NCBI GenBank assembly: GCA_041910055.1 | Contig: JAYRRP010000005.1 | Coordinates: 1 to 50,305 of the forward strand | DNA: 50,305 nucleotides | Reading direction: 5' to 3' | Origin: Candidatus Saccharimonadales bacterium | GTDB taxonomy: Bacteria; Patescibacteriota; Saccharimonadia; Saccharimonadales; JAYRRP01 | Made by a program: the position numbers and the translations under genes | In this document: positions 5,705-44,336 of the stretch, piece after piece | How the letters are laid out: the number at the start of each line of letters is the position of its first letter | Numbering within the stretch: the stretch's first letter is position 1 | Notes under the pieces: generated by a model | Databases searched by the model: none | Seen by the model: the letters and a program-made list of their open reading frames with translations, nothing else | What the model was told of the DNA's origin: nothing

Positions 5705-5792
5705 TGGTGGGCGAGGAGGGACTCGAACCCTCAAGGCTTATTCAGCCAACGGATTTTAAGTCCGTCGCGTATACCAGTTCCGCCACTCGCCC
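5705..5792 (-). tRNA. tRNA-Leu (anticodon UAA), class II long variable arm, CCA encoded
   Basis: The reverse complement folds by hand. Acceptor is GGGCGAG/CTCGCCC, the anticodon arm is ACGGA-CTTAAAA-TCCGT, the variable arm is GGCT-GAATA-AGCC, the T arm is GAGGG-TTCGAGT-CCCTC, and the 3' end is ACCA. Confidence 0.9.
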
Positions 5793-5836
5793 AGAATAAG
5801 GGTTCCCTCAGCGAGAGGATTCGCTGAAGGGTGTTC

Positions 5837-5910
5837 TGGAGGCGCGTACCGGAGTCGCACCGGTGTACAGGGTTTTGCAGACCCTTGCCTAACTCCTCGG
5901 CCAACGCGCC
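5837..5910 (-). tRNA. tRNA-Cys (anticodon GCA), CCA encoded
   Basis: In the reverse complement the acceptor is GGCGCGT/ACGCGCC, the anticodon arm is AGGGT-CTGCAAA-ACCCT, and the T arm is ACCGG-TGCGACT-CCGGT. The discriminator is U73 (a Cys identity element), followed by CCA. Confidence 0.85.
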
Positions 5911-17850: not shown

Positions 17851-17927
17851 GGGGCTATAGCTCAGTTGGCTAGAGCGCTTGTATGGCATACAAGAGGTCA
17901 GGAGTTCGAGTCTCCTTAGCTCCACCA
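17851..17927 (+). tRNA. tRNA-Ala (anticodon GGC), CCA encoded
   Basis: The acceptor GGGGCTA/TAGCTCC contains the G3:U70 Ala identity pair. The anticodon arm is CTTGT-ATGGCAT-ACAAG, the T arm is AGGAG-TTCGAGT-CTCCT, and the 3' end is ACCA. Confidence 0.9.
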
Positions 17928-25642: not shown

Positions 25643-26917
25643 ATGTTGAACCTCTTTAAAAGACGGCTTTATTTTGGCGGTGCCCGCTACTTTCGCTTCT
25701 GGGCTCGAATAAAACTCCGTCGTTGGGCACCGACCGTTATTGTCGTGACAGGTTCAGCCGGCAAGACGACTCTATTACATCTTATTGAGGCACAACTGGG
25801 CCGGGAGGCAAAATACTCACACCATGCCAATAGCGCCTATGGCATTCCTTTTGACATACTGGGGCTAAAGGGAGTGACTACTTCGCGTTTTAACTGGATT
25901 GGCTTATTTCTAAGAGCACCTTTTACCGTACTTTCAGATGTACCCAAGGCACGGCTTTATATAGCTGAAGCTGATGCAGACAGGCCAGGCGAAGCCCGAT
26001 TTTTAGGCGAGTTATTACATCCGAAAGTTACTCTGTGGGTGAATTCTTTGCACACCCACACCACTGCGTTTGACAGCCTCGTAAGTAGTGGGAAATTTCG
26101 GTCAGTCGAGGAGGCTGTTGCCTATGAATACGGTCACTTACTAGCCGCGACTTCAGATTTGGTAGTAATGGATGGCGATATAGAGCTAATGGTAAAGCAA
26201 AAGTCCAGGACAACGGCAAAGGTGGTTGAAGTGAGGTTGTCTGAATTAAAGGAATATACACTAAAGGTAGATAAAACAAGTTTTCGTTTTGACAAGCGAC
26301 AATATACTTTACCAGCGGCTGTTCCTAAGGCAACTTACTACCAAGTGGCAATGACAGATGCAGTATTGTCATACCTAAATGCGACTCCTGATTTGGTTTA
26401 CGAAAGATTTGAGCTTCCACCGGGCAGGAGCAGTCTCTTTACCGGCCTAAAGGGCACTACGCTCATAGATAGTACTTACAATAATTCCAACATTGACAGC
26501 TTGGGCGCGATAATTGAGATGTTTGATATTTATCCTGCTCACAAAAAGTGGTTGGTTATTGGCGATATGCTTGAGCAGGGCAAAGACGAAGCCCGGGAAC
26601 ACCAAAAAGTGGCTAATATGCTTGCGAGTACTCATTTTGATAAGATTTTATTTGTTGGTAAGCGGGTGCGTGCTCATACATTGCCTGCGCTAAGCGCTTC
26701 CCTAAAGGAACGTACCAAGATCCTTGTATTCAAAAGCCCAACTGAAGTAAAGGAATATTTACAGGCTGAGCTTTCCGGTCAAGAAACGGTCTTATTCAAA
26801 GGTGCTGGATTTTTAGAAGGTGTAGTAGAGTCACTGTTAGTGAATAAAGCTGATGCCGCGAAATTAGTAAGACGTGAGCGAATCTATCAAAAAAAGCGTG
26901 CAGCATGGGGAATGTAA
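25643..26917 (+). CDS. Mur ligase family protein (MurF/MurE-like paralog)
   Basis: It has the P-loop VVTGSAGKTTLLHLI, central and C-terminal Mur-ligase-like layout, and DSTYNNSN (compare the D.YNANP motif). Confidence 0.75.
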   Translation: MLNLFKRRLYFGGARYFRFWARIKLRRWAPTVIVVTGSAGKTTLLHLIEAQLGREAKYSHHANSAYGIPFDILGLKGVTTSRFNWIGLFLRAPFTVLSDVPKARLYIAEADADRPGEARFLGELLHPKVTLWVNSLHTHTTAFDSLVSSGKFRSVEEAVAYEYGHLLAATSDLVVMDGDIELMVKQKSRTTAKVVEVRLSELKEYTLKVDKTSFRFDKRQYTLPAAVPKATYYQVAMTDAVLSYLNATPDLVYERFELPPGRSSLFTGLKGTTLIDSTYNNSNIDSLGAIIEMFDIYPAHKKWLVIGDMLEQGKDEAREHQKVANMLASTHFDKILFVGKRVRAHTLPALSASLKERTKILVFKSPTEVKEYLQAELSGQETVLFKGAGFLEGVVESLLVNKADAAKLVRRERIYQKKRAAWGM

Positions 26918-27609
26918 TGAAAGTCTATATCTTGCATGGCTGGACCTATTCACTTGATAAGTGGGAGGAATTTTGCCAGCAAATGCAAGCAGCCGGTTAC
27001 GAGACTATCCAGTTAAAGGTCCCTGGATTAACGGCACCAAGTTCGAAGGTGTGGACAATAGACCAGTATGTAGAGTGGCTCCACAAAGAGCTTGCCAAAG
27101 AATCTTCGCCGATCGTTATCGGACATTCCAATGGGGGGAGGATTGCGCTTGCCTACGCACAGCGATATCCAGGCAGATTAGGTAAGTTAGTGCTGGTAGA
27201 TAGTGCGGGCATTCCCTTTAAGAATCGTCTGCATGAAGCAAAGCGTCGAACGCTAAGGTGGGCAGCCAAGACTAGCAAGCCACTTGCAAACGTAAAACCG
27301 CTCAGGAAATTGGTATACAGAGCTGTCGGCGCTCATGATTACTTGGAGGCACCACCGAACATGAAGCGCACTCTGCAAAATATGCTTGAAGCCGACCAGC
27401 GACTTGATCTTGCAAGTGTCCAGGTGCCCACAACCATTATTTGGGGCAAGGGTGATACCTACACGCCGTTGTCTATGGGAAAAAAAATGAACCGGCTGAT
27501 ATCGGGATCTCATTTATTTGTAATTGCTGGTGCAAAACATGCCCCATTCTATACTCACCCGCATGAGACTATTAAACTGATCCGGCATGAGCTTGAGGAA
27601 AAACCATGA
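26917..27609 (+). CDS. alpha/beta-fold hydrolase
   Basis: The nucleophile elbow is IGHSNGG, and a late His lies in GAKHAPFYTHP. ATG 26917 overlaps the Mur-ligase stop (TAATG). The track ORF begins at the alternative ATG 26905. Confidence 0.8.
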   Translation: MKVYILHGWTYSLDKWEEFCQQMQAAGYETIQLKVPGLTAPSSKVWTIDQYVEWLHKELAKESSPIVIGHSNGGRIALAYAQRYPGRLGKLVLVDSAGIPFKNRLHEAKRRTLRWAAKTSKPLANVKPLRKLVYRAVGAHDYLEAPPNMKRTLQNMLEADQRLDLASVQVPTTIIWGKGDTYTPLSMGKKMNRLISGSHLFVIAGAKHAPFYTHPHETIKLIRHELEEKP

Positions 27610-28796
27610 GTGTATTTAATTCTTTAGGCTCAAATTATTCTAATTCCTTTACGCGGCGGGCCAGTTTTGGCTGGACGCCCCGCAGGGCCGCAAACTTATT
27701 GCGCGAGCGACTAATTAATCAGTTTGGCGCACAGGTTATCTACCTTACCTTTAAAGGTCGCGAAGCGCTAGCTCTTATTTTGCGTGAATTAGACTTACCA
27801 AAAGACAGCGTGGTGGCAATTACGGGGTATACTTGTTACGCAGTGTATGCTGCTGTAAGAGCAGCCGGACATGAGGTCCATTATCTTGATATTGAACAGA
27901 ATGGATTGAATTTCTCGCCGGGAATTTTGCGACAAGGATTAAAAACGAATCCCTCCATAAAAGCAGTGATTATCCAAAACACGTTCGGTTTTCCGGCAGA
28001 AATAGAAGAAATTGAACGAATTTGTGCCAAAGAAGGAATAATTATCATAGAAGATTTGGCACATTGTGTGGGCATGAATTACGAGGATGGCAGGAAAGCC
28101 GGTACGGTTGGCAGAGGAGCGGCTTTCTCGTTTGGACAAGATAAAATGGTTGATGCTGTTTCTGGTGGTGCCGCAACCTTTCAGTGGCAGGTAGATCCAA
28201 CCAAAGCGCTTGCTTCGGTTCCAATAAAAGATCGGTTTGTTATGCGGATTTATCCAGCCGTAACGTTCTGTATCCGTGCGACAGTCCGCTTTGGCATTGG
28301 AAAAGTACTGCTCAAGGGCTTAAAGTCCTTACGTCTTTTACCAGGACCAATGGCTGGCAGCGCTGAAGTGGTGAGAGAACTTCCTAAGTGGCATTGTAAG
28401 TTAGTGGGGTGGTCACTGGATGATCTTGAAGATTCTATTGTCCACCGACGTAAAATCGCGGAGGTATACAAGAAGATATTACCCGAGCAAAACCTGTTTT
28501 TAGATTCTAAAGATGCAATATATTTACGTTTTCCTGTCAGGGCTGATAACCCGCGAGGACTTATCGAGTATCTCAAACAATATGATGTGTATGTAGGTGA
28601 CCGCTGGTACGATGCGCCGGTGGCGCCGGCTAGTTATTTATCCAGAACAGACTACAAAACGGGTCAATGTCCAAATGCTGAACAGACGGCCAGAGAAATG
28701 GTGAATTTACCTACTCACCGCTACGTAACTGAAATGAAGGCAAAATTTATTGCCAGGAGGGTAAGCGAATGGCTGGAATCATCGTCAAAGAAGTAA
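27606..28796 (+). CDS. DegT/DnrJ/EryC1/StrS-family PLP-dependent aminotransferase-like protein
   Basis: The fold-type I layout includes FSFGQDKMVDAVSGG, matching the SF...K.....GEGG Lys motif of the family. There is an ATGA overlap with the upstream gene. Confidence 0.75.
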   Translation: MSVFNSLGSNYSNSFTRRASFGWTPRRAANLLRERLINQFGAQVIYLTFKGREALALILRELDLPKDSVVAITGYTCYAVYAAVRAAGHEVHYLDIEQNGLNFSPGILRQGLKTNPSIKAVIIQNTFGFPAEIEEIERICAKEGIIIIEDLAHCVGMNYEDGRKAGTVGRGAAFSFGQDKMVDAVSGGAATFQWQVDPTKALASVPIKDRFVMRIYPAVTFCIRATVRFGIGKVLLKGLKSLRLLPGPMAGSAEVVRELPKWHCKLVGWSLDDLEDSIVHRRKIAEVYKKILPEQNLFLDSKDAIYLRFPVRADNPRGLIEYLKQYDVYVGDRWYDAPVAPASYLSRTDYKTGQCPNAEQTAREMVNLPTHRYVTEMKAKFIARRVSEWLESSSKK

Positions 28797-29797
28797 CAAA
28801 CCAGGACGAATGGGAAGATTTCTTAGCATTGCATCCTGAGGCTAATTTTTTACATTCTTTTTTATGGGGAATTTTCAACCAAAGAATTGGCAAGCAGGTT
28901 CACTACAGCGGCTTTTATGAAGACGAAAAACTAGCTGGAGTGATGCTTTCGATCATTGAACCGGCCCGACGTGGACGTTACCTTACCGTACCAGGGGGGC
29001 CAATCATTGATTGGTCCAGGAGTGAGATGGTGCAGGCTGTCCGGCAAGAGATGATACGACTAGGCAAAATTGAAAAGTGTGTGTTTGTACGTGTCCGGCC
29101 ACAGCTGCTAAATACAGAGCATAATAGGCAATTGTTTCACACGCTGGGATTCCAGCCAGCACAGATGCACTTGCATGCTGAACTAACTTCCCAACTTGAC
29201 ATCACGGCTGACGAGCCGACGTTACTTCAGCATTTTCGCAAGAATACACGTTATGAGCTTAAACAGGCAAAAAAACGTGGTATTAAAGTAACTTCAACCA
29301 CAGATCCGTCAGCAATCGAAGAATTTTATCAACTCCAACTTGAGACAGCTAAGCGTCATAAATTCGTACCTTACGGAAAGAAGTTCTTGAGGGAGCAGTT
29401 CGCGGTATTTGCTGAAGCCGGTAAAGCGATTTTATATAGTGCGCACACTACAGGTAACAAGTTAATTGCTCAAGCGTTCATCATTTTTTATCTACAAGAA
29501 GCTGCTTATCATTATGGAGCGAGCACTGAACTTGGACGGAGTGAACCGGGTGCGTATGCAATCCAGTGGGAGGCAATCAGAGAGGCCAAACGACGCGGAA
29601 TTAGCCGTTATAACTTTTGGGGTGTAGTGGATCCCTCGCAAACAAATCACCGATTTTGGGGAGTTTCAGTTTTTAAGAGGGGTTTTCGCGGCGAAGATGT
29701 TGAATATTTACATGCCCACGATCTTGTCTTGAAACAGATTAGTTATTTGCCAAACTTAACAATTGAGTACGTCCGAAAACGCCGGCGCCACCTCTAG
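28769..29797 (+). CDS. FemAB-family peptidoglycan aminoacyl-transferase (FemX-like)
   Basis: FLHSFLWG near the N-terminus, KNTRYELKQAKKRG and AYHYGAST are characteristic FemAB motifs. The SD aggagg (28755-28760) lies inside the upstream gene. Confidence 0.8.
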   Translation: MAGIIVKEVTNQDEWEDFLALHPEANFLHSFLWGIFNQRIGKQVHYSGFYEDEKLAGVMLSIIEPARRGRYLTVPGGPIIDWSRSEMVQAVRQEMIRLGKIEKCVFVRVRPQLLNTEHNRQLFHTLGFQPAQMHLHAELTSQLDITADEPTLLQHFRKNTRYELKQAKKRGIKVTSTTDPSAIEEFYQLQLETAKRHKFVPYGKKFLREQFAVFAEAGKAILYSAHTTGNKLIAQAFIIFYLQEAAYHYGASTELGRSEPGAYAIQWEAIREAKRRGISRYNFWGVVDPSQTNHRFWGVSVFKRGFRGEDVEYLHAHDLVLKQISYLPNLTIEYVRKRRRHL

Positions 29798-29837
29798 CGA
29801 TCCTTTCTCTTATTTGATAGTAGGAGTAAAATAAAGG

Positions 29838-30695
29838 GTGCCAATGGGGAGGTATAAGCGCTTGTTAAAACAGTGGCGCTCGCAGGTAGTAGGTGTAGCT
29901 GCGGGTCTGGTGCTAGCTTTTGTACCGATTATCAATGGCAGGGCATTACCGTGGCTTAGTGACGTTGGTAATGACAGCCTATCTTTGAATGAAACTACTG
30001 TAGCAAAAACCCAAGTTGACGTGACACCTGCTAAAGTGCCGGTCTGGCCTGCGTCACAATTGCCAAATCTATTTCCTGCAAAGACAAAAAAGCCAGTTGA
30101 TTGTCAGGCTGAGGCGTGTGTAGCGCTCACTTTTGATGATGGCCCGGATCCTTCGACAACGCCGCATATCATGGCAGCGCTTGAAAAGTATAATGTGCCA
30201 GCAACTTTCTTCGTAATTGGTAATCGAGTTGCTCGGAATGCTAGTTTATTGCACTCGATGTACCAGCAAGGATTAGAAATTGGAAATCATACATGGGGAC
30301 ATGCAAATCTTACAAAGCTTACTCCAGAACAAGTGACTCAGGAGATAAATCAGACCCAGGCGGCGTTTAGTAGTGCCGGATTACCTGTACCCCAACTGTT
30401 TCGTCCGCCTTATGGTAAGCGAGATGAAGTAGTGCGAGAACGTGCAGCCATGCCGCTCATTATGTGGAACGTAGATCCACAAGATTGGCGGGCTACAGAA
30501 CCGGCTCAAGTAGTACAGGCAGTCAATGCACAGGCCAAACCAGGTTCTATTATTCTTATGCACGATACCAAACCAGTAACCGCTGCTGCAGCAGAAGAAG
30601 TAGTGCGTGATTTGCAAAGTCACTACCAGTTAGTGACCGTGTCACAGTTGTTAGATCTTCATTCTTCTTCACGTGGTGAATACTTTAGTCGCTGA
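29838..30695 (+). CDS. NodB-type polysaccharide/peptidoglycan deacetylase, N-terminally anchored
   Basis: NodB motifs are VALTFDDGP, GNHTWGH, FRPPYG and ILMHD. The start is GTG 29838 or ATG 29844. Confidence 0.85.
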   Translation: MPMGRYKRLLKQWRSQVVGVAAGLVLAFVPIINGRALPWLSDVGNDSLSLNETTVAKTQVDVTPAKVPVWPASQLPNLFPAKTKKPVDCQAEACVALTFDDGPDPSTTPHIMAALEKYNVPATFFVIGNRVARNASLLHSMYQQGLEIGNHTWGHANLTKLTPEQVTQEINQTQAAFSSAGLPVPQLFRPPYGKRDEVVRERAAMPLIMWNVDPQDWRATEPAQVVQAVNAQAKPGSIILMHDTKPVTAAAAEEVVRDLQSHYQLVTVSQLLDLHSSSRGEYFSR

Positions 30696-30736: not shown

Positions 30737-33700
30737 ATGAGACGATACAATCCGAAGGAGATAGAGCCCAAATGGCAAAAGGTTTGGGCAGAGAAGAAGC
30801 TGTACAAAGCAGTTGATTTCGACGAACGCCCCAAGTTTGTTATGCTCACGGAGTTTCCCTATCCATCAGGTGACGGACTGCATTTAGGGCATGTCCGAGA
30901 ATACACGTTGGGCGACATCATGGCGCGGCGTCAAAGGATGGCTGGTAAGAACGTGCTCTATCCAATGGGCTATGATGCCTTTGGCCTGCCTACCGAGAAT
31001 TACGCGATTAAAAATAAAATTGCCCCACAAATTGCGACTGATCAAAACGTTGGTAATTTTCAGCAACAATTCGATAGTCTTGGATACAGCATTGACTGGG
31101 ATCGTAGCTTTCGTACGAGTGACCCAAGCTACTACAAGTGGACACAGTGGCTTTTTCTTCAGCTCTATAAAGCAGGATTGGCCTATCAGGACGAGATTGC
31201 GATTAACTGGTGCCCGAAGTGCAAAACAGGCCTAGCCAATGAAGAGGTTGTGAATGGCCGTCATGAACGTTGTGACACTCCAGTAGAGAAGAAATTCTTA
31301 AAACAATGGATTCTCAAAATTACCGACTACGCTGATCGTTTGATCGATGGATTGCAAACAGTTGACTATCCTAGCCGGATTGCCGACCAGCAGGCTAATT
31401 GGATTGGCCGCAGTGTGGGTGCCGAAGTAGACTTTGAAGTCGACTCAAAACTTAAGTTTGTAGTGCTTCATGGCTTTATGGCAAGCTCCAAAGATCACTT
31501 TCATCCTTGGCTCAAAGCAGAACTGGAAAAGCGAGGCCATGAGGTTTATATTCCAGACTTGCCGAATACAAATCATCCGGATGCAGAAGAGCAAGCAAAA
31601 TTCGTCTTAGATAACTTTGAACTTGATGAGAACACAGTGCTAATTGGGCATAGTTATGGCACTGTTACTGCACTAAGAATATTGGAACAAGTAAAAGTGC
31701 CAATTTATAAATACATTTCTGTGGTGGGATTTGCTGAGCCAAAATTTTTAGACAAGTTACGTCCTTTCGAAGAAACGACTAACTGGAATTTTGATTTTCC
31801 TAGGATTAAAAATAATGTGCAAGAAATAGTCTTTTTAAGAGCAAGTAACGACTCGGCTGTACCTCAAGAACGGTCAGACTTCTTAATGAAGAATCTACAA
31901 GGCGAAATAGTAGACTTCACTGCTGAAGCGAACCATGTTTGTGGTGAAAAGGAGCCGGTGGTACTTGCAAATGCTTTACAGAAAGTTACAGTTTTCACCA
32001 CGCGGCCGGATACGTTGTTTGGTGCAACTTTTATGGTGCTGGCACCGGAGCATCCTTTAGTAAAAAGCATGACCACACCTGAACAAAGTGAAACCGTGGG
32101 TTCTTATATTAAGATGGCTCAGGCTAAATCAGACATTGAACGCCAAGAGAATAAAGAGAAGACCGGCGTGTTTACGGGTGCCTATGTAGTCAACCCAGTC
32201 AATAACGATAAAATACCGGTCTGGATTGCCGATTATGTATTAACTGGCTACGGCACAGGCGCCATAATGGCTGTACCAGCTCACGATGAGCGGGATTATG
32301 AATTTGCACAGAAATTTGATTTACCAGTTAGGCAGGTTATTGCACCTTACATCACCAATAGCGGCAAGAATGCAGCCAGAGAAAATGTGGAAACTCTAGA
32401 TCGTCAAGTTGTCGATGCCATCATTAAAAATGATAAGGATGAGTATCTACTGCTTGTTGAAGAAGATAATATTCACTTTGTTGGCGGTGGCATAGAACCC
32501 GAGGACAAAGACGAACAAGAGGCGGTTAAACGTGAGATTAAAGAAGAAACTGGTCATACCGACATAGCTGCCATGAGGATTGTGTCACCAGTTGTGCGAA
32601 CATTTGCGTTTCGAATTCCTAAAAATAAGAACCAACGCTGCGACGGCACTTTTTACGAGGTTCTCTTAGCTTCCGACAGGAGGGTGGAAAGCGAAGTAGA
32701 AGAAGGAAAACACCAATTTCGTTGGGTAAAGAAAAGTGAAGTCGAGAAACTAATCACTTGGGAAGGCCACATGTGGGCGTGGCAACAATATCTATCAGGA
32801 AGCTTGTGCTACTCGGGAGAAGGAGTACTTATTAATTCTGGCAAGTATGATGGGATGAGCACGAGTGAGGCACGCGAGAAAATCACTCAAGACTTGGAAG
32901 CTCAGGGCTCCGGCAAAGAGCGAGTGAATTATAAGCTGCGTGACTGGATCTTCAGCCGTCAGCACTACTGGGGCGAACCAATCCCAGTTATTCATTGCGG
33001 CAAAGATGGGGCTGTGCCAGTACCCGATGAACAGCTCCCAGTCGAGTTGCCGTCAGTTGATAATTACGAGCCAACCGATACCGGAGAAAGCCCATTGGCA
33101 GCAATCGAAGATTGGGTTAATGTGGCATGCCCAAAGTGTGGAGGCAAAGCCAAACGTGAAACCGATACGATGCCAAACTGGGCAGGGAGCAGTTGGTATT
33201 ACTTGCGGTATTTTGATGCACACAATGACCAAGCCTTCGCTGATAGAAAGAAACTTGATTACTGGGGTATGGTTGATATGTACTTGGGTGGTATGGAACA
33301 TACTACACTCCACTTGCTGTATTCCCGATTCTGGCACCAGTTCTTTTATGATCAAAAGTTAGTTCCCACGCCAGAGCCATATGCTGCTAGGCGCGGTCAG
33401 GGTATTATTCTGGCCGAAGATGGCACTAAAATGAGCAAAAGCAAAGGGAACGTCATCAACCCCACTGACATTATCAGCCAAGGGTATGGTGCGGATGCGC
33501 TTCGCATTGGTATTGCCTTTTTGGCGCCTTATGACCAAACCACTGCTTGGAAGCCAGACGCGGTGACTGGTGCCTTTCGTTTTCTGCAGAGGTACTGGAC
33601 GCTGGTGCAGGAATATCTAGCAACCGCATCAGAACCGCTGAAAGAAAATTCTCAATTACCGCATGCAGTTCACCGGCTGATTAAGGACGTTTCTATTGAG

Positions 33701-34135
33701 CTAGAGCATATGCGATTCAACACTGCAATTGCTGCTTTAATGGAGTGCTTAAACGAGCTCTATAAGTTCAAAGCGGAATTTGGTTTTGGTGAGCGGGATG
33801 GGTGGCAGTTTGCCTTGATTACCTTCACGCAGTTACTTGCGCCGTTTGCGCCGCACATCACAGAAGAAGTGTGGTCACTTTTGCGTCAAAATGGCTCGGT
33901 TCACAATAACAACTGGCCAGTACACGACGAAAAGTTGGTATTGAGCAAGCAAATCATTGTTGTCGTACAGATCAACGGCAAAGTGAGGGGGCAATTCGAA
34001 GTAGCCGCGGAAATTTCCCAAGATGAACTGATTGCTTTAGTCCAACAGGACCAGAAAGTATCAACTCACCTGGCAAATAAGCAAATCCGCAAAACGATAT
34101 ATGTACCAGGCAGATTGGTTAATTTTGTAGTCTAG
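30737..34135 (+). CDS. leuS: leucyl-tRNA synthetase with two inserted hydrolase-like domains (1132 aa)
   Basis: Canonical motifs are YNPKEIEPKWQKVW, HLGHVREY (HIGH-type), WIGRSVGAEVDF, TTRPDTLFGATF plus AVPAHDERDYEFA (CP1 editing), YKLRDWIFSRQHYWGEPIP and KMSKSKGN. It is one uninterrupted frame. Confidence 0.95.
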   Translation: MRRYNPKEIEPKWQKVWAEKKLYKAVDFDERPKFVMLTEFPYPSGDGLHLGHVREYTLGDIMARRQRMAGKNVLYPMGYDAFGLPTENYAIKNKIAPQIATDQNVGNFQQQFDSLGYSIDWDRSFRTSDPSYYKWTQWLFLQLYKAGLAYQDEIAINWCPKCKTGLANEEVVNGRHERCDTPVEKKFLKQWILKITDYADRLIDGLQTVDYPSRIADQQANWIGRSVGAEVDFEVDSKLKFVVLHGFMASSKDHFHPWLKAELEKRGHEVYIPDLPNTNHPDAEEQAKFVLDNFELDENTVLIGHSYGTVTALRILEQVKVPIYKYISVVGFAEPKFLDKLRPFEETTNWNFDFPRIKNNVQEIVFLRASNDSAVPQERSDFLMKNLQGEIVDFTAEANHVCGEKEPVVLANALQKVTVFTTRPDTLFGATFMVLAPEHPLVKSMTTPEQSETVGSYIKMAQAKSDIERQENKEKTGVFTGAYVVNPVNNDKIPVWIADYVLTGYGTGAIMAVPAHDERDYEFAQKFDLPVRQVIAPYITNSGKNAARENVETLDRQVVDAIIKNDKDEYLLLVEEDNIHFVGGGIEPEDKDEQEAVKREIKEETGHTDIAAMRIVSPVVRTFAFRIPKNKNQRCDGTFYEVLLASDRRVESEVEEGKHQFRWVKKSEVEKLITWEGHMWAWQQYLSGSLCYSGEGVLINSGKYDGMSTSEAREKITQDLEAQGSGKERVNYKLRDWIFSRQHYWGEPIPVIHCGKDGAVPVPDEQLPVELPSVDNYEPTDTGESPLAAIEDWVNVACPKCGGKAKRETDTMPNWAGSSWYYLRYFDAHNDQAFADRKKLDYWGMVDMYLGGMEHTTLHLLYSRFWHQFFYDQKLVPTPEPYAARRGQGIILAEDGTKMSKSKGNVINPTDIISQGYGADALRIGIAFLAPYDQTTAWKPDAVTGAFRFLQRYWTLVQEYLATASEPLKENSQLPHAVHRLIKDVSIELEHMRFNTAIAALMECLNELYKFKAEFGFGERDGWQFALITFTQLLAPFAPHITEEVWSLLRQNGSVHNNNWPVHDEKLVLSKQIIVVVQINGKVRGQFEVAAEISQDELIALVQQDQKVSTHLANKQIRKTIYVPGRLVNFVV
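31441..31985 (+). other. insertion 1 in LeuRS: alpha/beta serine-hydrolase-like domain (about 180 aa)
   Basis: KFVVLHGFMASSKDHFHPWLK and VLIGHSYGT (GxSxG) resemble the YdeN/RBBP9-type small serine hydrolases, from memory. The domain sits between GRS..DFEV and TTRPDT. Confidence 0.6.
32347..32815 (+). other. insertion 2 in LeuRS: Nudix-like domain (about 155 aa)
   Basis: GGGIEPEDKDEQEAVKREIKEETG contains a REUxEExG core, but the upstream Gx5E spacing is off by 2 residues from the canonical Nudix box. The domain sits between AHDERDYEFAQKFDLPVRQVIAP and GVLINSGKYDG. Confidence 0.55.
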
Positions 34136-35557: not shown

Positions 35558-36058
35558 ATGAAGAGACCGAAACCTATCCAAGGAATACGCAAATTTGTAA
35601 AACGCCGGCGACCAGCTATTAGTGAGGTGGTGCGAGAGCCTACCGCCGGAGGGATCGTATTTAGGCGAAGTTCTAAATCTGGTGGCATTGAGATTTTACT
35701 TATACAAGATGCGAAGAATAGATGGACTATACCAAAAGGCCACATTGAAGATGGTGAAGTGGCCAAACAAACAGCCGAACGCGAGATTCGCGAAGAAACC
35801 GGCCTGAAACAAATGAAGGTGTTAAATTGGCTGGGTAAAATAAACTTCCGTTATCGCCGGTCAACCAGCTTGGTATTAATGACGACGGAGATTTTTTTGG
35901 TGCAGGCACTTGGTAAAACTAATGAGCTTCACCCTGAAGACTGGATGAATGGGATAAAGTGGTTCCCCGCACAGGAAGCGCTCGACAAGATAGAATATGA
36001 TGACATCGGTAAAATAATTCTTTTGGCACTCAAGAAAATTAGGCATGCAGGATTATAG
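35558..36058 (+). CDS. Nudix hydrolase
   Basis: It has a perfect Nudix box, GHIEDGEVAKQTAEREIREETGL (Gx5Ex7REUxEExGU). Confidence 0.85.
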   Translation: MKRPKPIQGIRKFVKRRRPAISEVVREPTAGGIVFRRSSKSGGIEILLIQDAKNRWTIPKGHIEDGEVAKQTAEREIREETGLKQMKVLNWLGKINFRYRRSTSLVLMTTEIFLVQALGKTNELHPEDWMNGIKWFPAQEALDKIEYDDIGKIILLALKKIRHAGL

Positions 36059-43164: not shown

Positions 43165-44336
43165 CCTGTCAGGAGGGCTGCGCGACGAGCCATCTGTTCC
43201 ATTTCGTCGCACTCTACCACGAGGGCAGTTTTCAGGTTAGGACTATGTGCTACTTGAGTAATACTGGGACTGATTGACTTGGCTTCGCATGGTTTAAGCC
43301 CGAGATAAGAAAGACTATTTAGAATCCTTTTTCTAATAATCTCTGACCTTTCGCCAACGGTACCAGTAAAAATGAGACTATCAAGTCCGTCCAGTGCGGC
43401 CGTCATTTGGCCAACCGCTTTGCAAACGGTATAAACATACATTTTCAGGGCTAAGGAGGCACGATAGTGCCCTGTTTCCTCGAGTTTCAACAACTCACGA
43501 ATATCTGAGGAGACGCCGCTGATGCCGAGAAGTCCGGATTGAGTATTTAAGAGTAACTCAGCCGCTTCATCGTCTAATCCTTCAGCTTCCTGCAGTGCAT
43601 TAACTGCCACAGGATCAACATTACCACTTCGTGTAGCCATGACTACGCCTTCTAAAGGTGAGTAGCCCATGGTGTTATCGATGCTGGTTCCGTTCTTTAC
43701 CGCGCTGACACTGGAGCCACTTCCCAAGTGACAAATCACTAGTTTGCTGTGCAGTAGGCGATGAGAGCGGAGACGGTGGATGGCGGACTCAACCGACAAG
43801 CCGTGATAACCAAAGCGTTTTAGCTCTAACCTGTCAGCTAGATCAAGTGGCAGACCATAATTCCAGGCATAATCTGGTTTATTTTTGTGAAAACCACTAT
43901 CAGATATGCCGATGTAGCGAGCGTCGGGTAAACATTTCTTTAGTCGGTTGTATTCATCAAGCGAGGCGCCAATATGCAGGGGAAAGCGGGCGCGTAAGTG
44001 GGTAAGACGGGAAAGAACGGATGGGTCAAGCAGTCGATCTTCTAGAAAAAAGCCACTTGGTGCGACAATACGCAGGGCTACTTGAGAGATTCGGTCGTGG
44101 GGAGACAAAAGTTCGTGCTGCCTAGCAAGAGGTAACAAAGAGGCAGAAACTTCATCAATGTGAGTATGGGAAGTCGCTACGCGCTCTTTTTTATTGTCCT
44201 TTGTGAGCGTATAAACTATCTGTCCGTTGTCGGTTTCGAAATGTAAACTTGCCAGGCATTTATCGTGACGGTAAAACGCATATTTGCGGGAAGAACTGCC
44301 CGGATTTGCAACTAGTGTGATCTTTTCCACTGCCAT
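43161..44336 (-). CDS. ackA: acetate kinase
   Basis: Motifs are LVANPGSSSRKY (compare N.GSSS.K), RFGYHGLS, CHLGSGSSVSA and FTGTVGERS. Confidence 0.9.
   Translation of the reverse strand: MAVEKITLVANPGSSSRKYAFYRHDKCLASLHFETDNGQIVYTLTKDNKKERVATSHTHIDEVSASLLPLARQHELLSPHDRISQVALRIVAPSGFFLEDRLLDPSVLSRLTHLRARFPLHIGASLDEYNRLKKCLPDARYIGISDSGFHKNKPDYAWNYGLPLDLADRLELKRFGYHGLSVESAIHRLRSHRLLHSKLVICHLGSGSSVSAVKNGTSIDNTMGYSPLEGVVMATRSGNVDPVAVNALQEAEGLDDEAAELLLNTQSGLLGISGVSSDIRELLKLEETGHYRASLALKMYVYTVCKAVGQMTAALDGLDSLIFTGTVGERSEIIRKRILNSLSYLGLKPCEAKSISPSITQVAHSPNLKTALVVECDEMEQMARRAALLTG

What the first reader, a model, noticed from the sequence alone, without database searches (positions are those of the whole stretch)
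30737..34135. LeuRS carrying two extra hydrolase-like domains (alpha/beta serine hydrolase and Nudix) flanking its CP1 editing domain
Seen in sequence:
- The leuS ORF is 1132 aa in one frame, whereas bacterial LeuRS is usually about 800-880 aa (E. coli 860, from memory).
- All canonical blocks are present and in order: HLGHVREY, WIGRSVGAEVDF, TTRPDTLFGATF, AVPAHDERDYEFA, LINSGKYDG, YKLRDWIFSRQHYWGEPIP, KMSKS.
- Two segments have no counterpart in the canonical enzyme.
- Segment 1 (31441-31985, about 180 aa) lies between GRS..DFEV and TTRPDT, where E. coli has roughly 10-15 residues. It contains KFVVLHGF..S..HFHPWL and the nucleophile elbow IGHSYGT.
- Segment 2 (32347-32815, about 155 aa) lies between AHD..FA..PV and G.L.NSG..DG. 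It contains GGGIEPEDKDEQEAVKREIKEETG, a Nudix-box core REIKEETG.
- Hand GC counts of 60-nt lines: 19/60 at 31741 and 22/60 at 32401 inside the inserts, against 33/60 at 30901 and 31/60 at 33121 in the core. This fits secondary acquisition of the inserts.

Inference: an esterase fold and a pyrophosphohydrolase fold match the two labile bonds of the aminoacylation cycle, the aa-tRNA ester and the aa-AMP/Ap4A anhydride. The inserts could therefore add proofreading, adenylate or Ap4A turnover, or a moonlighting activity.
Basis: partly seen in the sequence, partly recalled or inferred. Interest (0 to 1): 0.8.

Follow-up and report, generated by a model that had tools for sequence, protein, structure and literature searches.

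The report
LeuRS with nested hydrolase domains
This leucyl-tRNA synthetase carries two extra, apparently active enzymes (a small serine hydrolase and a Nudix pyrophosphatase) spliced into its proofreading domain, and the same add-ons recur in LeuRS and IleRS of many ultra-small bacteria and archaea, which suggests an undescribed helper activity for these synthetases.

Summary
ORF 30737-34135 encodes a complete 1132-aa bacterial-type LeuRS. HLGH, KMSKS and the CP1 editing motifs are intact.

Two autonomous domains are nested inside CP1:
- A lid-less alpha/beta serine hydrolase of the YdeN/RBBP9 family (res 238-415; Ser306/Asp372/His400) ends 6 residues before the Thr-rich editing motif.
- A Nudix domain lies at res 537-692.
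- Both pass Pfam thresholds and model at pLDDT 95-97. Their catalytic residues are invariant in relatives.

The architecture is not an artefact. Among 120 close relatives (Saccharibacteria), 70 have Nudix only, 12 the hydrolase only, 10 both and 27 neither. The states are patchy on the core tree and there are signs of recombination.

Wider searches added four things:
- The two families occupy at least five LeuRS sites, in up to three copies.
- The hydrolase is nested in LeuRS of many CPR phyla and DPANN archaea, and at the equivalent CP1 site in IleRS of oral Saccharibacteria.
- Free-standing homologues sometimes lie directly beside leuS.
- Other relatives carry Ham1, HAD or DUF559 inserts.

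Best reading: accessory hydrolases functionally coupled to class Ia synthetases, namely an aminoacyl-ester hydrolase plus an ApnA/nucleotide pyrophosphatase. The substrates are untested. Main rival: permissive loops passively carrying unrelated enzymes. No publication was found.

The parts
30737..34135 (+). leuS: complete bacterial-type leucyl-tRNA synthetase gene, 1132 aa plus stop
   Evidence: The ORF is listed. It scores 981 bits against TIGR00396 (cutoff 548). The PDB LeuRS 1h3n matches at E 6e-226. A 99%-identical protein (P0001) is seen on 9 contigs.
30737..31444 (+). N-terminal catalytic (Rossmann) part and the beta-strand that leads into CP1 (res 1-236). HLGH lies at 30881-30892.
   Evidence: This part aligns to T. 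thermophilus LeuRS residues 1-239. The HxGH motif is kept in all 121 sequences.
31448..31981 (+). Insert 1 (res 238-415): a lid-less alpha/beta serine hydrolase of the YdeN/RBBP9 family (Pfam Ser_hydrolase). Predicted triad: Ser306 (31652-31654, in GHSYG), Asp372 (31850-31852) and His400 (31934-31936).
   Evidence: Pfam gives 41.2 bits against a GA of 22. The insert profile hits PDB YdeN at E 5e-28 and RBBP9 at 1e-17. The AF2 model has pLDDT 97.3. Foldseek gives YdeN TM 0.89 and RBBP9 TM 0.85. Ser and His are invariant. Against L018, pN is 0.09 and pS 0.83. GC is 0.391.
31985..32341 (+). Core of the CP1 editing domain (res 417-535). It holds the Thr-rich motif TTRPDT (31997-32014) and GTGAIMAVPAHDERD (32252-32296).
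   Evidence: PF13603 profile positions 18-147 match res 412-542. The region aligns to T. thermophilus residues 242-362. The motifs are intact in all four architectures.
32345..32812 (+). Insert 2 (res 537-692): a Nudix hydrolase domain. The Nudix box lies at 32483-32557 (GGGIEPEDKDEQEAVKREIKEETGH). Key residues are G584, D590, R599, E600, E603 and E604. Family-specific residues are K629, N632, E655 and W663.
   Evidence: Pfam gives 49.0 bits against a GA of 21.1. The AF2 model has pLDDT 94.8. Foldseek gives 2azw TM 0.76/0.81, followed by NudI and Ap4A/Ap6A hydrolases. E600, E603 and E604 are present in 82/82 sequences.
32819..34132 (+). The rest of the enzyme (res 695-1132): the C-terminal end of CP1, the second half of the catalytic domain with the Zn-ribbon CPKCGG (33128-33145) and KMSKS (33428-33442), the anticodon-binding domain and the C-terminal domain.
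   Evidence: This part aligns to T. thermophilus residues 376-876. PF08264 matches res 976-1093. KMSKS is present in 121/121 sequences.

Best explanation
SHOWN
- The gene encodes an intact LeuRS with an intact CP1 editing site.
- Two autonomous, catalytically equipped hydrolase domains have been nested secondarily into CP1 loops.
- One is a YdeN/RBBP9-type serine hydrolase that ends 6 residues before the Thr-rich editing motif.
- The other is a Nudix domain in the loop that follows the conserved AHD(E)RD block.
- The same two families have been joined to class Ia editing synthetases repeatedly and independently. They occur at five or more LeuRS sites and in 1-3 copies.
- The hydrolase occupies the topologically equivalent CP1 site of IleRS.
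- Both families also occur as separate genes that abut or overlap leuS.

INFERRED
- Both domains work on small-molecule or tRNA-end products of the synthetase that carries them.
- The serine hydrolase acts as an alpha-aminoacyl (thio)ester or amide hydrolase, like its only characterised relative RBBP9. RBBP9 needs a free alpha-amine and also cleaves the valyl ester of a nucleoside analogue.
- Sitting beside the CP1 pocket, it would clear non-cognate aminoacyl species that CP1 handles poorly. Candidates are a mischarged tRNA 3' end, released aminoacyl esters, and homocysteine thiolactone, which LeuRS and IleRS generate.
- The Nudix domain would hydrolyse dinucleoside polyphosphates (ApnA) or related nucleotide by-products formed from the enzyme-bound adenylate.
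- Together they would form a by-product clearance or auxiliary proofreading module. It is dispensable enough to be gained, lost and swapped among close relatives.
For: Domain identity and likely catalytic competence
- Pfam, PDB profile searches, AF2 models and Foldseek all agree on the two folds.
- The catalytic Ser is kept in 40/40 LeuRS-nested, 17/17 and 10/10 IleRS-nested, and 23/23 free copies. His and Asp/Glu are kept in nearly all.
- The Nudix E600, E603 and E604 are kept in 82/82 sequences.
- The hydrolase insert is under purifying selection, with pN 0.09 against pS 0.83.

Coupling to the synthetase
- In the best 80 loci of GTDB species representatives, the hydrolase is nested in LeuRS in 40, nested in IleRS in 17, and free-standing in 23.
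- It ends 6 residues before TTRxDT in 31/37 LeuRS. It ends 13 residues before TTTPWT in 17/17 IleRS.
- Nested copies are polyphyletic and interleave with free-standing ones on the domain tree.
- Three of 31 free-standing hydrolase genes examined abut leuS, where chance predicts about 0.06:
  - P0278 ends 6 nt upstream of leuS.
  - P0284 overlaps the leuS stop by 4 nt, in an archaeal locus.
  - L092 has the hydrolase directly upstream of leuS.
- In syntenic Pacearchaeota-type loci (tRNA intron endonuclease | leuS | ... | alaS) the hydrolase is either nested or a separate gene.
- The free-standing Nudix P0141 ends 2 nt before a LeuRS gene. L036 shows the same arrangement.
- Free-standing N and H genes form clusters in L076 and L097.

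Chemistry
- RBBP9 is an aminopeptidase that requires a free alpha-amine (PMC8866121). It is also a valacyclovir-activating enzyme (Shenoy 2020, as cited in PMC7730578).
- aaRSs synthesise Ap3-5N (PMC7705103).
- LeuRS and IleRS edit homocysteine (PMC5370406).
- BPHL, another valacyclovir hydrolase, is a homocysteine thiolactonase (PMC4198189, title).
- The Nudix family consensus has Y/F at +17 from the Nudix box in 74/82 sequences. This is the X-loop position whose Tyr marks ApnA hydrolases (PMC5389931).
- ApnA hydrolases are among the best sequence and structure matches.
Against: - No substrate was tested. The Nudix sequence and fold matches do not discriminate between subfamilies.
- In the window itself the +17 residue is Ala, with Phe at +16 and +18. 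The GX5E spacing also carries a one-residue insertion.
- CP1 motifs are intact in every architecture, so nothing needs replacing.
- The inserts are absent from 27 of 120 close relatives, and near-identical cores differ in architecture. They are therefore not essential.
- Related LeuRS carry Ham1, HAD, DUF559 and unknown domains at the same loops. One IleRS carries an LMWPc phosphatase. An M17 aminopeptidase carries the same Nudix family. All of this fits generic permissive loops.
- Most free-standing homologues are not next to leuS: 28 of 31 for the hydrolase and 3 of 4 for the Nudix in the look-ups.
- The distance and orientation between Ser306 and the CP1 pocket could not be measured, because no model coordinates were available.
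Confidence: 0.45

Rival explanations
1. Passive carrier. Surface loops of CP1 and other parts of class Ia synthetases in CPR bacteria and DPANN archaea tolerate domain insertion. Small housekeeping enzymes (Nudix, YdeN-like, Ham1, HAD, phosphatases) have been nested there for co-expression or through genome streamlining. They act on their ordinary cellular substrates, such as nucleotide-pool sanitation, with no direct link to LeuRS chemistry.
For: - Related LeuRS carry a diversity of unrelated inserts: Ham1 at 201.8 and 31.4 bits, HAD at 63.8 and 44.2 bits, DUF559 at 106.4 bits, and three unidentified domains.
- An IleRS carries an LMWPc phosphatase.
- The same Nudix family is nested, together with GNAT domains, in an M17 aminopeptidase.
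- There are at least five insertion sites and variable copy number.
- Presence and absence are patchy among near-identical cores.
- The inserts evolve much faster than the core. Nudix identity is 20-30% where the core is about 80%.
Against: - Two families dominate overwhelmingly.
- The hydrolase sits at the same place, 6-13 residues before the Thr-rich editing motif, in both LeuRS and IleRS.
- Separate genes abut or overlap leuS far more often than chance allows, in unrelated lineages and in both orientations.
- These nearest free-standing relatives cluster with nested copies on the domain tree.
Confidence: 0.3
2. Inhibitor detoxification. The serine hydrolase and the Nudix domain destroy natural aminoacyl-adenylate or aminoacyl-nucleoside mimics that target LeuRS or IleRS. 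This would be analogous to MccF and MccE acting on processed microcin C. It would give on-site resistance to antibiotics made by hosts such as Actinobacteria or by competitors.
For: - The patchy, rapidly evolving, recombining and copy-number-variable distribution is typical of accessory or arms-race functions.
- Free-standing N and H genes cluster together (L076, L097). That fits sequential attack on a molecule with both an aminoacyl and a nucleotide part.
- NCBIfam already recognises an IleRS with an appended GNAT domain (NF040702, listed).
- RBBP9 cleaves an aminoacyl nucleoside-analogue ester.
- Saccharibacteria live on Actinobacteria, which are prolific producers of nucleoside antibiotics (established knowledge).
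Against: - No known inhibitor is implicated.
- The resistance analogy (MccF/MccE) is recalled from memory and was not tested here.
- The architecture also occurs in groundwater CPR and DPANN lineages whose hosts are unknown.
- The nested Ham1 and HAD inserts do not fit obviously.
Confidence: 0.12
3. The inserts have non-catalytic roles. The domains would serve as structural, tRNA-binding or protein-interaction modules that have lost enzymatic function.
For: - In the window's subgroup the canonical GX5E glutamate position is occupied by Lys and there is a one-residue insertion.
- Four hydrolase inserts lack Asp at the usual column.
Against: - The nucleophile Ser and the His are invariant in about 90 copies.
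- The REx2EE glutamates are invariant in 82/82 sequences.
- An acidic residue, D590, is available one position away in the window.
- The four hydrolase inserts without the usual Asp have an Asp 2-3 residues upstream.
Confidence: 0.05
4. tRNA 3'-end repair. The Nudix would remove a pyrophosphate or nucleotide adduct placed on the CCA end by toxins such as toxSAS-type pyrophosphokinases. The serine hydrolase would remove blocked aminoacyl groups. Together they would restore tRNA-Leu or tRNA-Ile on the synthetase.
For: Both domains sit on CP1, which binds the tRNA 3' end. The distribution looks accessory and defence-like. Otherwise the idea rests only on recalled knowledge of tRNA-targeting toxins.
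Against: - There is no toxin or immunity context in the window.
- RBBP9-type enzymes need a free alpha-amine, which argues against N-blocked substrates.
- The idea is purely speculative.
Confidence: 0.04
5. Assembly chimera or mis-called ORF.
For: None beyond the low GC of insert 1.
Against: - The frame is single and uninterrupted.
- A 99%-identical protein is found on 9 contigs from NCBI and Logan.
- Ten further clusters carry both inserts, and hundreds carry one, from independent projects.
Confidence: 0.01

Closest known systems
Canonical bacterial LeuRS with a CP1 editing domain (T. thermophilus 1H3N/2BYT, E. coli 4AQ7/4ARC)
   Same: All core domains are present in the same order. HIGH, KMSKS, the Thr-rich motif and the conserved editing Asp are all there. 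The PDB match is E 6e-226 and TIGR00396 scores 981 bits.
   Different: Two complete extra enzyme domains, of 178 and 156 aa, are nested inside CP1. The region aligned to the T. thermophilus leucine-specific insertion (about Tt 594-636) is missing.
YdeN (B. subtilis, PDB 1UXO) and human RBBP9 (2QS9, 7OEX), Pfam Ser_hydrolase PF06821
   Same: Same minimal lid-less alpha/beta fold, with TM 0.89 and 0.85. Same Ser-Asp-His triad in the same order. The profile E-values are 5e-28 and 1e-17. Free-standing homologues of 180-190 aa are common in CPR, DPANN and Actinobacteria.
   Different: Here the domain is nested within a synthetase rather than free-standing. The function of YdeN is unknown. The substrates shown for RBBP9 are peptides and a prodrug, not tRNA. 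Whether the RBBP9 residue that binds the amine (Glu108) is conserved could not be settled from sequence.
Nudix (di)nucleoside polyphosphate hydrolases (lupin Ap4A hydrolase 1F3Y, Aquifex 3I7U, T. thermophilus Ndx1 1VC8) and E. faecalis 2AZW
   Same: Same Nudix fold, with TM up to 0.81. The REUXEEXGU core is present. The family consensus has an aromatic residue at the X-loop position +17.
   Different: The domain is nested in a synthetase. The window's subgroup has GX5D-X8-RE spacing and Ala at +17. The family has its own invariant residues (K629, N632, E655, W663). Substrate specificity has not been determined.
Class Ia synthetases with appended accessory enzymes, for example IleRS with a GNAT domain (NCBIfam NF040702)
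   Same: In both cases a class Ia editing synthetase is physically joined to a small enzyme that could act on aminoacyl-nucleotide-like molecules.
   Different: The fold is different (GNAT transferase versus hydrolases). Here the domain is nested next to the editing site rather than added as a separate module. The window protein scores only 67.8 bits against that model, far below its 1999-bit cutoff.
Dedicated editing and deacylase modules (CP1, ProRS INS/YbaK, AlaX, DTD)
   Same: The proposed role is the same: hydrolysis of an aminoacyl ester next to or alongside a synthetase. These modules also occur both fused and free-standing.
   Different: None of them is an alpha/beta serine hydrolase. 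No editing activity has been shown for the YdeN-like insert.

Membership tests
Bacterial-type leucyl-tRNA synthetase (TIGR00396 leuS_bact) | Whole-protein score above the curated cutoff | tested here: met
   981.4 bits against a cutoff of 548.4.
Bacterial-type leucyl-tRNA synthetase (TIGR00396 leuS_bact) | Class I signature motifs HIGH and KMSKS | tested here: met
   HLGH at res 49-52 and KMSKS at res 898-902. KMSKS is present in 121/121 relatives.
Bacterial-type leucyl-tRNA synthetase (TIGR00396 leuS_bact) | CP1 editing site: the Thr-rich motif and the conserved Asp of the GTG...HD block | tested here: met
   TTRPDT at res 421-426 and GTGAIMAVPAHDERD at res 506-520. Both are intact whatever the insert architecture.
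Bacterial-type leucyl-tRNA synthetase (TIGR00396 leuS_bact) | Leucylation and editing activity | not testable with these tools
   This needs enzymology.
Ser_hydrolase / YdeN-RBBP9 family (Pfam PF06821) | Profile score above the gathering threshold | tested here: met
   36.4 bits in the whole protein and 41.2 bits on the isolated segment, against a GA of 22. The insert profile hits YdeN at E 5e-28 and RBBP9 at 1e-17.
Ser_hydrolase / YdeN-RBBP9 family (Pfam PF06821) | Lid-less minimal alpha/beta hydrolase fold | tested here: met
   The AF2 model has pLDDT 97.3. Foldseek gives 1uxo TM 0.89/0.85 with rmsd 2.0, and RBBP9 TM 0.85. The next alpha/beta hydrolases are five orders of magnitude weaker in E-value.
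Ser_hydrolase / YdeN-RBBP9 family (Pfam PF06821) | Catalytic triad: Ser in G-x-S-x-G, plus Asp and His, in family order | tested here: met
   The window has Ser306 (GHSYG), Asp372 and His400. Ser is kept in 90/90 copies, His in 87/90 and Asp/Glu in 88/90.
Ser_hydrolase / YdeN-RBBP9 family (Pfam PF06821) | Hydrolysis of alpha-aminoacyl amide or ester with a free amine, as shown for RBBP9 | not testable with these tools
   The activity is known only for RBBP9 (PMC8866121). Conservation of its amine-binding Glu108 could not be decided, because that loop does not align reliably.
Nudix hydrolase superfamily (Pfam PF00293) | Profile score above the gathering threshold, and the Nudix fold | tested here: met
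   44.6 and 49.0 bits against a GA of 21.1. The AF2 model has pLDDT 94.8. Foldseek gives TM 0.76/0.81 to 2azw, with probability 1.00 for all 50 matches listed.
Nudix hydrolase superfamily (Pfam PF00293) | Nudix box GX5EX7REUXEEXGU | tested here: inconclusive
   R599-E600-I-K-E603-E604-T-G606 is canonical. Upstream, the window and 8 relatives have one extra residue, giving G584-X5-D590-X8-RE, with Lys at the aligned Glu column. The final U position is His. In the family as a whole the box is canonical in most sequences: E591 in 65/82, R599 in 72/82, and E600/E603/E604 in 82/82.
Nudix ApnA (dinucleoside polyphosphate) hydrolase subgroup | Conserved Tyr in the X-loop about 17 residues after the Nudix box (Dunn 1999, as reviewed in PMC5389931) | tested here: inconclusive
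   In the family the +17 column is Tyr in 41 and Phe in 33 of 82 sequences. The window has Phe623, Ala624 and Phe625 at +16, +17 and +18. PDB hits to ApnA hydrolases are not clearly better than hits to other Nudix subfamilies.
aaRS cis-editing domains (functional class) | Hydrolysis of mischarged tRNA or non-cognate adenylate by the domain | not testable with these tools
   Only positional and genomic association were obtained.

The most novel reading that the evidence does not exclude
The YdeN/RBBP9-like serine hydrolase is a previously unrecognised, structurally unrelated class of synthetase-associated aminoacyl hydrolase. It would act as a second editing or by-product-clearing site. LeuRS and IleRS of CPR bacteria and DPANN archaea recruited it independently and repeatedly, as a nested domain beside the CP1 pocket or as a translationally coupled neighbour gene. 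It works together with a dedicated Nudix that removes adenylate-derived dinucleoside polyphosphates. Class Ia synthetases in these ultra-small cells would then be modular quality-control platforms whose accessory hydrolases are exchanged by recombination, including between the bacterial and archaeal domains.
Probability: 0.3. Interest if true: 0.9.

Novelty: new variant of a known kind. Interest (0 to 1): 0.8.

Why it matters
All described proofreading by aminoacyl-tRNA synthetases uses a handful of dedicated folds: CP1, INS/YbaK, the AlaX/N2 type, and DTD. A serine-hydrolase fold and a Nudix fold nested in the editing domain of two class Ia synthetases would add a new layer of translational quality control, or of by-product control involving ApnA alarmones, homocysteine thiolactone or aminoacyl esters. 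These domains are conserved catalytically and were recruited repeatedly across CPR bacteria and DPANN archaea. The organisms concerned have the smallest known genomes.

The finding would also give the uncharacterised YdeN/RBBP9 family its first physiological context. It offers a clean natural example of recurrent nested-domain evolution and of inter-domain gene exchange. It touches cultivable human oral Saccharibacteria too, because Nanosynbacter IleRS carries the same hydrolase, so genetics is possible.

If the passive-carrier reading is right instead, the case is still a striking example of protein-architecture plasticity, but it says little about translation.

Tried and rejected
- **Assembly artefact.** Rejected, because the architecture recurs in independent assemblies.
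- **Origin of insert 2 from the Nudix gene 1.4 kb downstream (35558-36058).** Rejected. Only the Nudix box is similar (BLASTP E 0.017). That gene scores 42.8 bits on the insert HMM, against 151 bits for the insert itself.
- **Origin of insert 1 from the alpha/beta hydrolase gene upstream (26905-27609).** Rejected. It belongs to a different family (Abhydrolase_1) and scores 28.5 bits on the insert HMM.
- **The inserts replace a degenerate CP1.** Rejected, because the editing motifs are intact in all architectures.
- **Single ancient gain followed by losses only.** Not supported. Nested hydrolase copies are polyphyletic. Nudix copies at different sites interleave with free-standing ones. Segment identities are mosaic. 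The trees are NJ without bootstrap support.
- **Assigning the Nudix subfamily.** PDB profile and fold searches do not discriminate between subfamilies.
- **Cluster look-up for organism names.** It returned none.
- **The search for related loci with the 22-sequence hydrolase alignment.** It failed because the alignment has no conserved stretch. I repeated it with 8 window-type sequences, so that survey is biased towards window-type hydrolases and capped at 80 of 176 hits.
- **dN/dS.** It could not be computed because synonymous sites are saturated. Only pN and pS are reported.
- **Literature.** Six searches found no description of these architectures. The library lacks most subscription-journal papers.
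- **Full-length model.** I did not attempt one. Model coordinates are not returned, so distances between active sites could not have been measured.

Full report
**1. The observation**

The window holds a single uninterrupted ORF at 30737..34135 (+), 1132 aa. It is a bacterial-type LeuRS:
- TIGR00396 scores 981 bits against a cutoff of 548.
- The T. thermophilus LeuRS 1h3n matches at E 6e-226.
- HLGH (res 49-52), TTRPDT (421-426), GTGAIMAVPAHDERD (506-520) and KMSKS (898-902) are all present.

The PDB alignment breaks into four pieces and leaves out exactly two segments:
- Res 239-415 replaces Tt residues 240-241.
- Res 536-690 replaces Tt residues ~363-375.

The first segment matches the B. 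subtilis hydrolase YdeN on its own, at E 2e-14. Pfam places Ser_hydrolase PF06821 on res 242-396 (36.4 bits, GA 22) and NUDIX PF00293 on res 556-674 (44.6 bits, GA 21.1). The LeuRS editing-domain model PF13603 is matched in three stretches that bracket both inserts. So the inserts lie inside CP1 rather than beside it.

Insert 1 is unusually AT-rich. Its GC is 0.391 and GC3 is 0.331, and only 0.5% of equal-sized windows are as low. Insert 2, at 0.438, is unremarkable.

**2. The inserts are real, folded and catalytically equipped**

A profile of 22 insert-1 sequences hits YdeN at E 5e-28 and human RBBP9 at 1e-17. The AF2 model has pLDDT 97.3. It superposes on YdeN at TM 0.89 (rmsd 2.0) and on RBBP9 at TM 0.85. 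Ordinary alpha/beta hydrolases score far worse.

The predicted triad in the window is Ser306 (GHSYG), Asp372 and His400. Across about 90 copies from LeuRS, IleRS and free-standing genes:
- Ser is kept in 100%.
- His is kept in 87/90.
- Asp or Glu is kept in 88/90.

Between the window and locus L018, the insert has pN 0.09 against a saturated pS of 0.83. That is as constrained as the LeuRS core.

The insert-2 model has pLDDT 94.8 and is a Nudix fold. Foldseek gives 2azw at TM 0.76/0.81, followed by NudI, T. thermophilus Ap6A hydrolase, Aquifex Ap4A hydrolase and mycobacterial MutT1. In 82 insert-2 sequences, E600, E603, E604 and W663 are invariant. G584, R599, G606, K629, N632 and E655 are nearly invariant.

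The window and eight relatives have one extra residue before the helix, giving GX5D-X8-RE, so the box is slightly non-canonical there.

**3. Distribution among close relatives**

The 120 best LeuRS homologues carry source names such as Candidatus Saccharibacteria, Saccharimonadales and Patescibacteria. They fall into these forms:

| Form | Number |
|---|---|
| Nudix only (~960 aa) | 70 |
| No insert (~810 aa) | 27 |
| Hydrolase only (~985 aa) | 12 |
| Both inserts (1132-1180 aa) | 10 |
| A different 114-aa insert at site 1, plus Nudix (P0022) | 1 |

On a neighbour-joining tree of the 786 core columns the forms are thoroughly interleaved. Very close cores differ in architecture, for example P0005 with both inserts against P0064 with none, and P0012 with the hydrolase against P0044 with none.

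Segment identities are mosaic:
- P0117, P0099, P0112 and P0091 are only 53-58% identical to the window in the catalytic halves, but 59-69% in the hydrolase and 70-77% in CP1.
- P0004 is 93% identical in the N-terminal part but only 37% in the hydrolase.
- P0007 has one of the closest cores (75% identical in the C-terminal part, the highest there apart from P0001) but only 25% identity in the Nudix.

The CP1-plus-insert region is therefore gained, lost and exchanged by recombination. The CP1 motifs, HxGH and KMSKS are intact in every form, so the inserts do not compensate for a dead editing site.

**4. The wider picture: Nudix family**

An exhaustive HMM search with the Nudix-insert profile found 145 cluster representatives at E<=1e-30. 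I classified the best 150 with home-made HMMs. The two families occupy at least five LeuRS positions, given here in window numbering:

| Site | Position | Nested content |
|---|---|---|
| 0 | ~208-217 | Nudix, or two Nudix |
| 1 | 236/417 | Hydrolase, Nudix, or two of either |
| 2 | 536/695 | Nudix, or two Nudix |
| 3 | ~757 | Hydrolase |
| 4 | ~800 | Nudix |

One protein can hold up to three Nudix domains (P0128, P0129).

Other relatives carry different domains at the same loops:
- Ham1/ITPase (201.8 bits at site 5, about res 963, and 31.4 bits at site 1)
- HAD phosphatase (63.8 and 44.2 bits)
- DUF559 (106.4 bits)
- Three unidentified domains

The same Nudix family is nested twice, with two GNAT domains, in an M17 aminopeptidase (P0194). 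Free-standing ~160-aa members of the Nudix family also exist.

By best BLAST hit, nested copies at different sites and free-standing copies interleave. For example, the closest relative of the site-4 copies outside site 4 is the free-standing P0267.

**5. The wider picture: hydrolase family**

The hydrolase profile retrieves mostly free-standing 180-190-aa proteins from CPR lineages such as Wolfebacteria, Peregrinibacteria and Shapirobacteria.

The closest one, P0278, is 41% identical to the window insert. It is encoded 6 nt upstream of an insert-free 809-aa leuS. Another, P0284, overlaps by 4 nt the stop codon of an 826-aa bacterial-type leuS. That locus also holds ribosomal protein S17e, a tRNA intron endonuclease and TFIIE, so it is archaeal. 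Six other free-standing genes examined were not next to leuS.

I then scanned one genome per GTDB species with a window-type hydrolase alignment. This gave 176 relatives, of which the best 80 were kept. They split as follows:

| Setting | Loci | Taxon labels |
|---|---|---|
| Nested in LeuRS | 40 | Saccharibacteria; Kaiser-, Paceibacterota, Levyi-, Magasanikii-, Taylor-, Parcubacteria, Minisyncoccia; Woese-, Pace- and Nanoarchaeota |
| Nested in IleRS | 17 | Saccharibacteria, including Candidatus Nanosynbacter |
| Free-standing | 23 | CPR, DPANN, Nanohaloarchaea, Actinobacteria |

The IleRS identity was confirmed by TIGR00392 at 690-714 bits, above its cutoff of 621. Pfam Ser_hydrolase is present once or twice in these proteins. 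Some also carry a partial NUDIX, and one carries an LMWPc phosphatase.

The position of the hydrolase is strikingly consistent:
- It ends 6 residues before TTRxDT in 31 of 37 LeuRS, and never more than 13.
- It ends 13 residues before TTTPWT in all 17 IleRS.
- In both enzymes this is the same topological spot, immediately upstream of the Thr-rich peptide of the CP1 active site.

Other observations from this survey:
- One further free-standing copy abuts leuS (L092).
- A Nudix gene abuts leuS in L036, and so does the free-standing Nudix P0141.
- Free-standing N and H genes cluster together in L076 and L097.
- A Pacearchaeota locus with the hydrolase nested (L023) has the same synteny as L005, where the hydrolase is a separate gene. 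The order is tRNA intron endonuclease | leuS | ... | alaS.
- On a hydrolase-domain NJ tree the nested copies are polyphyletic and interleave with free-standing ones, including the leuS-adjacent ones.

Three of 31 free-standing hydrolase genes examined abut leuS. Chance would predict about 0.06, if one assumes roughly 1000 genes per genome.

**6. Interpretation**

Firmly established:
- This is an intact LeuRS carrying two secondarily nested hydrolase domains.
- Both domains are under purifying selection and keep their catalytic residues.
- The protein belongs to a large, undescribed population of decorated class Ia synthetases in CPR bacteria and DPANN archaea.

I favour a functional coupling (confidence about 0.45) for four reasons:
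- The repeated independent joining of the same two families to LeuRS and IleRS.
- The constant position of the hydrolase beside the editing pocket in two different enzymes.
- The operon-like adjacency of free-standing copies to leuS.
- The clustering of free-standing N and H genes.

The chemistry proposed is inferred from relatives:
- RBBP9, the only characterised member of PF06821, removes an alpha-aminoacyl group that has a free amine (PMC8866121). It also activates the valyl-ester prodrug valacyclovir (Shenoy 2020, cited in PMC7730578). That is the same kind of bond as in aminoacyl-tRNA.
- LeuRS and IleRS are among the synthetases that misactivate homocysteine and release its thiolactone (PMC5370406).
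- Another valacyclovir hydrolase, BPHL, is a thiolactonase (PMC4198189).
- Synthetases make Ap3-5N from the bound adenylate (PMC7705103).
- The Nudix family has the aromatic X-loop residue at +17 that marks ApnA hydrolases (PMC5389931). In the window itself that residue is Ala, flanked by two Phe.

**7. Rivals**

- **Passive carrier (about 0.3).** The variety of other nested domains (Ham1, HAD, DUF559, LMWPc, GNAT), the many insertion sites, the variable copy number and the dispensability among near-identical cores fit permissive loops that carry housekeeping enzymes.
- **Detoxification of aminoacyl-nucleotide-type inhibitors (about 0.12).** This fits the accessory, fast-evolving pattern and the pairing of N with H, but no inhibitor is known.
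- **Non-catalytic roles, tRNA-end repair and artefact.** All three are unlikely.

**8. Novelty**

Six full-text searches found no description of LeuRS or IleRS with Nudix or serine-hydrolase inserts. Public records name these proteins simply as leucine--tRNA ligase or class I tRNA ligase family protein. The sequences are therefore public but apparently uninterpreted. I rate the finding as a new variant of a known kind, namely a synthetase with accessory domains. If the hydrolase proves to be an editing or clearance site of a new fold, it could be categorically new.

**Limits**
- No enzymology was possible.
- No model coordinates were available.
- The trees have no support values.
- The genome survey is capped at 80 loci and biased towards window-type hydrolases.
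- Organism labels are those written by the depositors. Four are labelled Gammaproteobacteria and are probably mislabelled.
- Whether the window organism has a second leuS could not be checked.

Noticed in passing
L040, L047, L049, L051, L052, L054, L055, L057, L059-L063, L065, L067-L069 (e.g. L055:2465-7054 +): IleRS of Saccharibacteria, including Candidatus Nanosynbacter, is 1200-1760 aa long. It carries one or two YdeN-like serine hydrolases nested around the TTTPWT editing motif. Some copies also have a partial NUDIX, and L047 has an LMWPc phosphatase or arsenate-reductase-like domain.
   Followed up: partly
P0152, P0214, P0170, P0149, P0225, P0193 (LeuRS relatives): Other LeuRS relatives carry Ham1/ITPase, HAD-phosphatase or DUF559 (endonuclease-like) domains nested at the same or further loops. 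These loops correspond to window res ~236, ~800 and ~963.
   Followed up: partly
P0022, P0188 (site 1); P0160, P0168, P0214, P0226, P0228 (site ~757); P0251 (site 1): Three further nested inserts of 115-190 aa have no Pfam match above threshold. One has a GFWNEY motif. One is an ASCH-like ~130-aa domain. One resembles a nucleotidyltransferase weakly.
   Followed up: no
P0194 (1318 aa): An M17 (leucyl) aminopeptidase carries two GNAT domains and two Nudix domains of the same family as insert 2, all nested inside it.
   Followed up: partly
L005-L007, L020, L022, L023, L025, L027, L030, L032, L033, L038, L092: DPANN archaea (Woese-, Pace- and Nanoarchaeota) have bacterial-type LeuRS, with the hydrolase either nested or as an adjacent gene. 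Their inserts are 44-54% identical to the window's, which is closer than many Saccharibacteria copies. This suggests transfer of the gene between CPR bacteria and DPANN archaea.
   Followed up: partly
window 35558-36058 (+); also L018, L019, L056, L058, L064, L093: A free-standing Nudix gene of a different subfamily sits between nusB and rnc, 1.4 kb downstream of leuS. A Nudix ORF at a similar distance from leuS recurs in related Saccharibacteria loci.
   Followed up: partly
window 25643-30695 (+): A cell-wall gene cluster lies directly upstream of leuS. It comprises a Mur ligase, a free-standing alpha/beta hydrolase (26905-27609), a DegT aminotransferase, a FemAB-family gene (28769-29797) and a polysaccharide deacetylase. 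FemAB enzymes are aminoacyl-tRNA-dependent peptidoglycan bridge transferases. FemAB genes also lie near a free-standing YdeN-like gene in L010.
   Followed up: no
window 6029-12595 (+): A giant ORF of 2188 aa has only a SASA carbohydrate-esterase domain recognised (res 656-833). The rest has no annotation.
   Followed up: no
window 5705-5910 (-), 17851-17927 (+): Three tRNA genes are present: tRNA-Leu(UAA), tRNA-Cys(GCA) and tRNA-Ala(GGC). The tRNA-Leu would be a substrate of the decorated LeuRS.
   Followed up: no
window 44312-46654 (-): A complete phosphoketolase (XFP) gene is present. This is consistent with the reduced fermentative metabolism of Saccharibacteria.
   Followed up: no
P0010, P0017 (hydrolase-only LeuRS): Two hydrolase-bearing LeuRS have variant editing motifs, TTAHDT and AVPGED(D/A)RD, and a different sequence after CP1. 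They were the only departures from the standard CP1 motifs among the insert-bearing forms.
   Followed up: no
L013 (P0282 locus): A free-standing YdeN-like gene lies about 300 nt from a gene for a stand-alone B3_4 domain. That domain is the fold of the PheRS beta-subunit editing domain.
   Followed up: no
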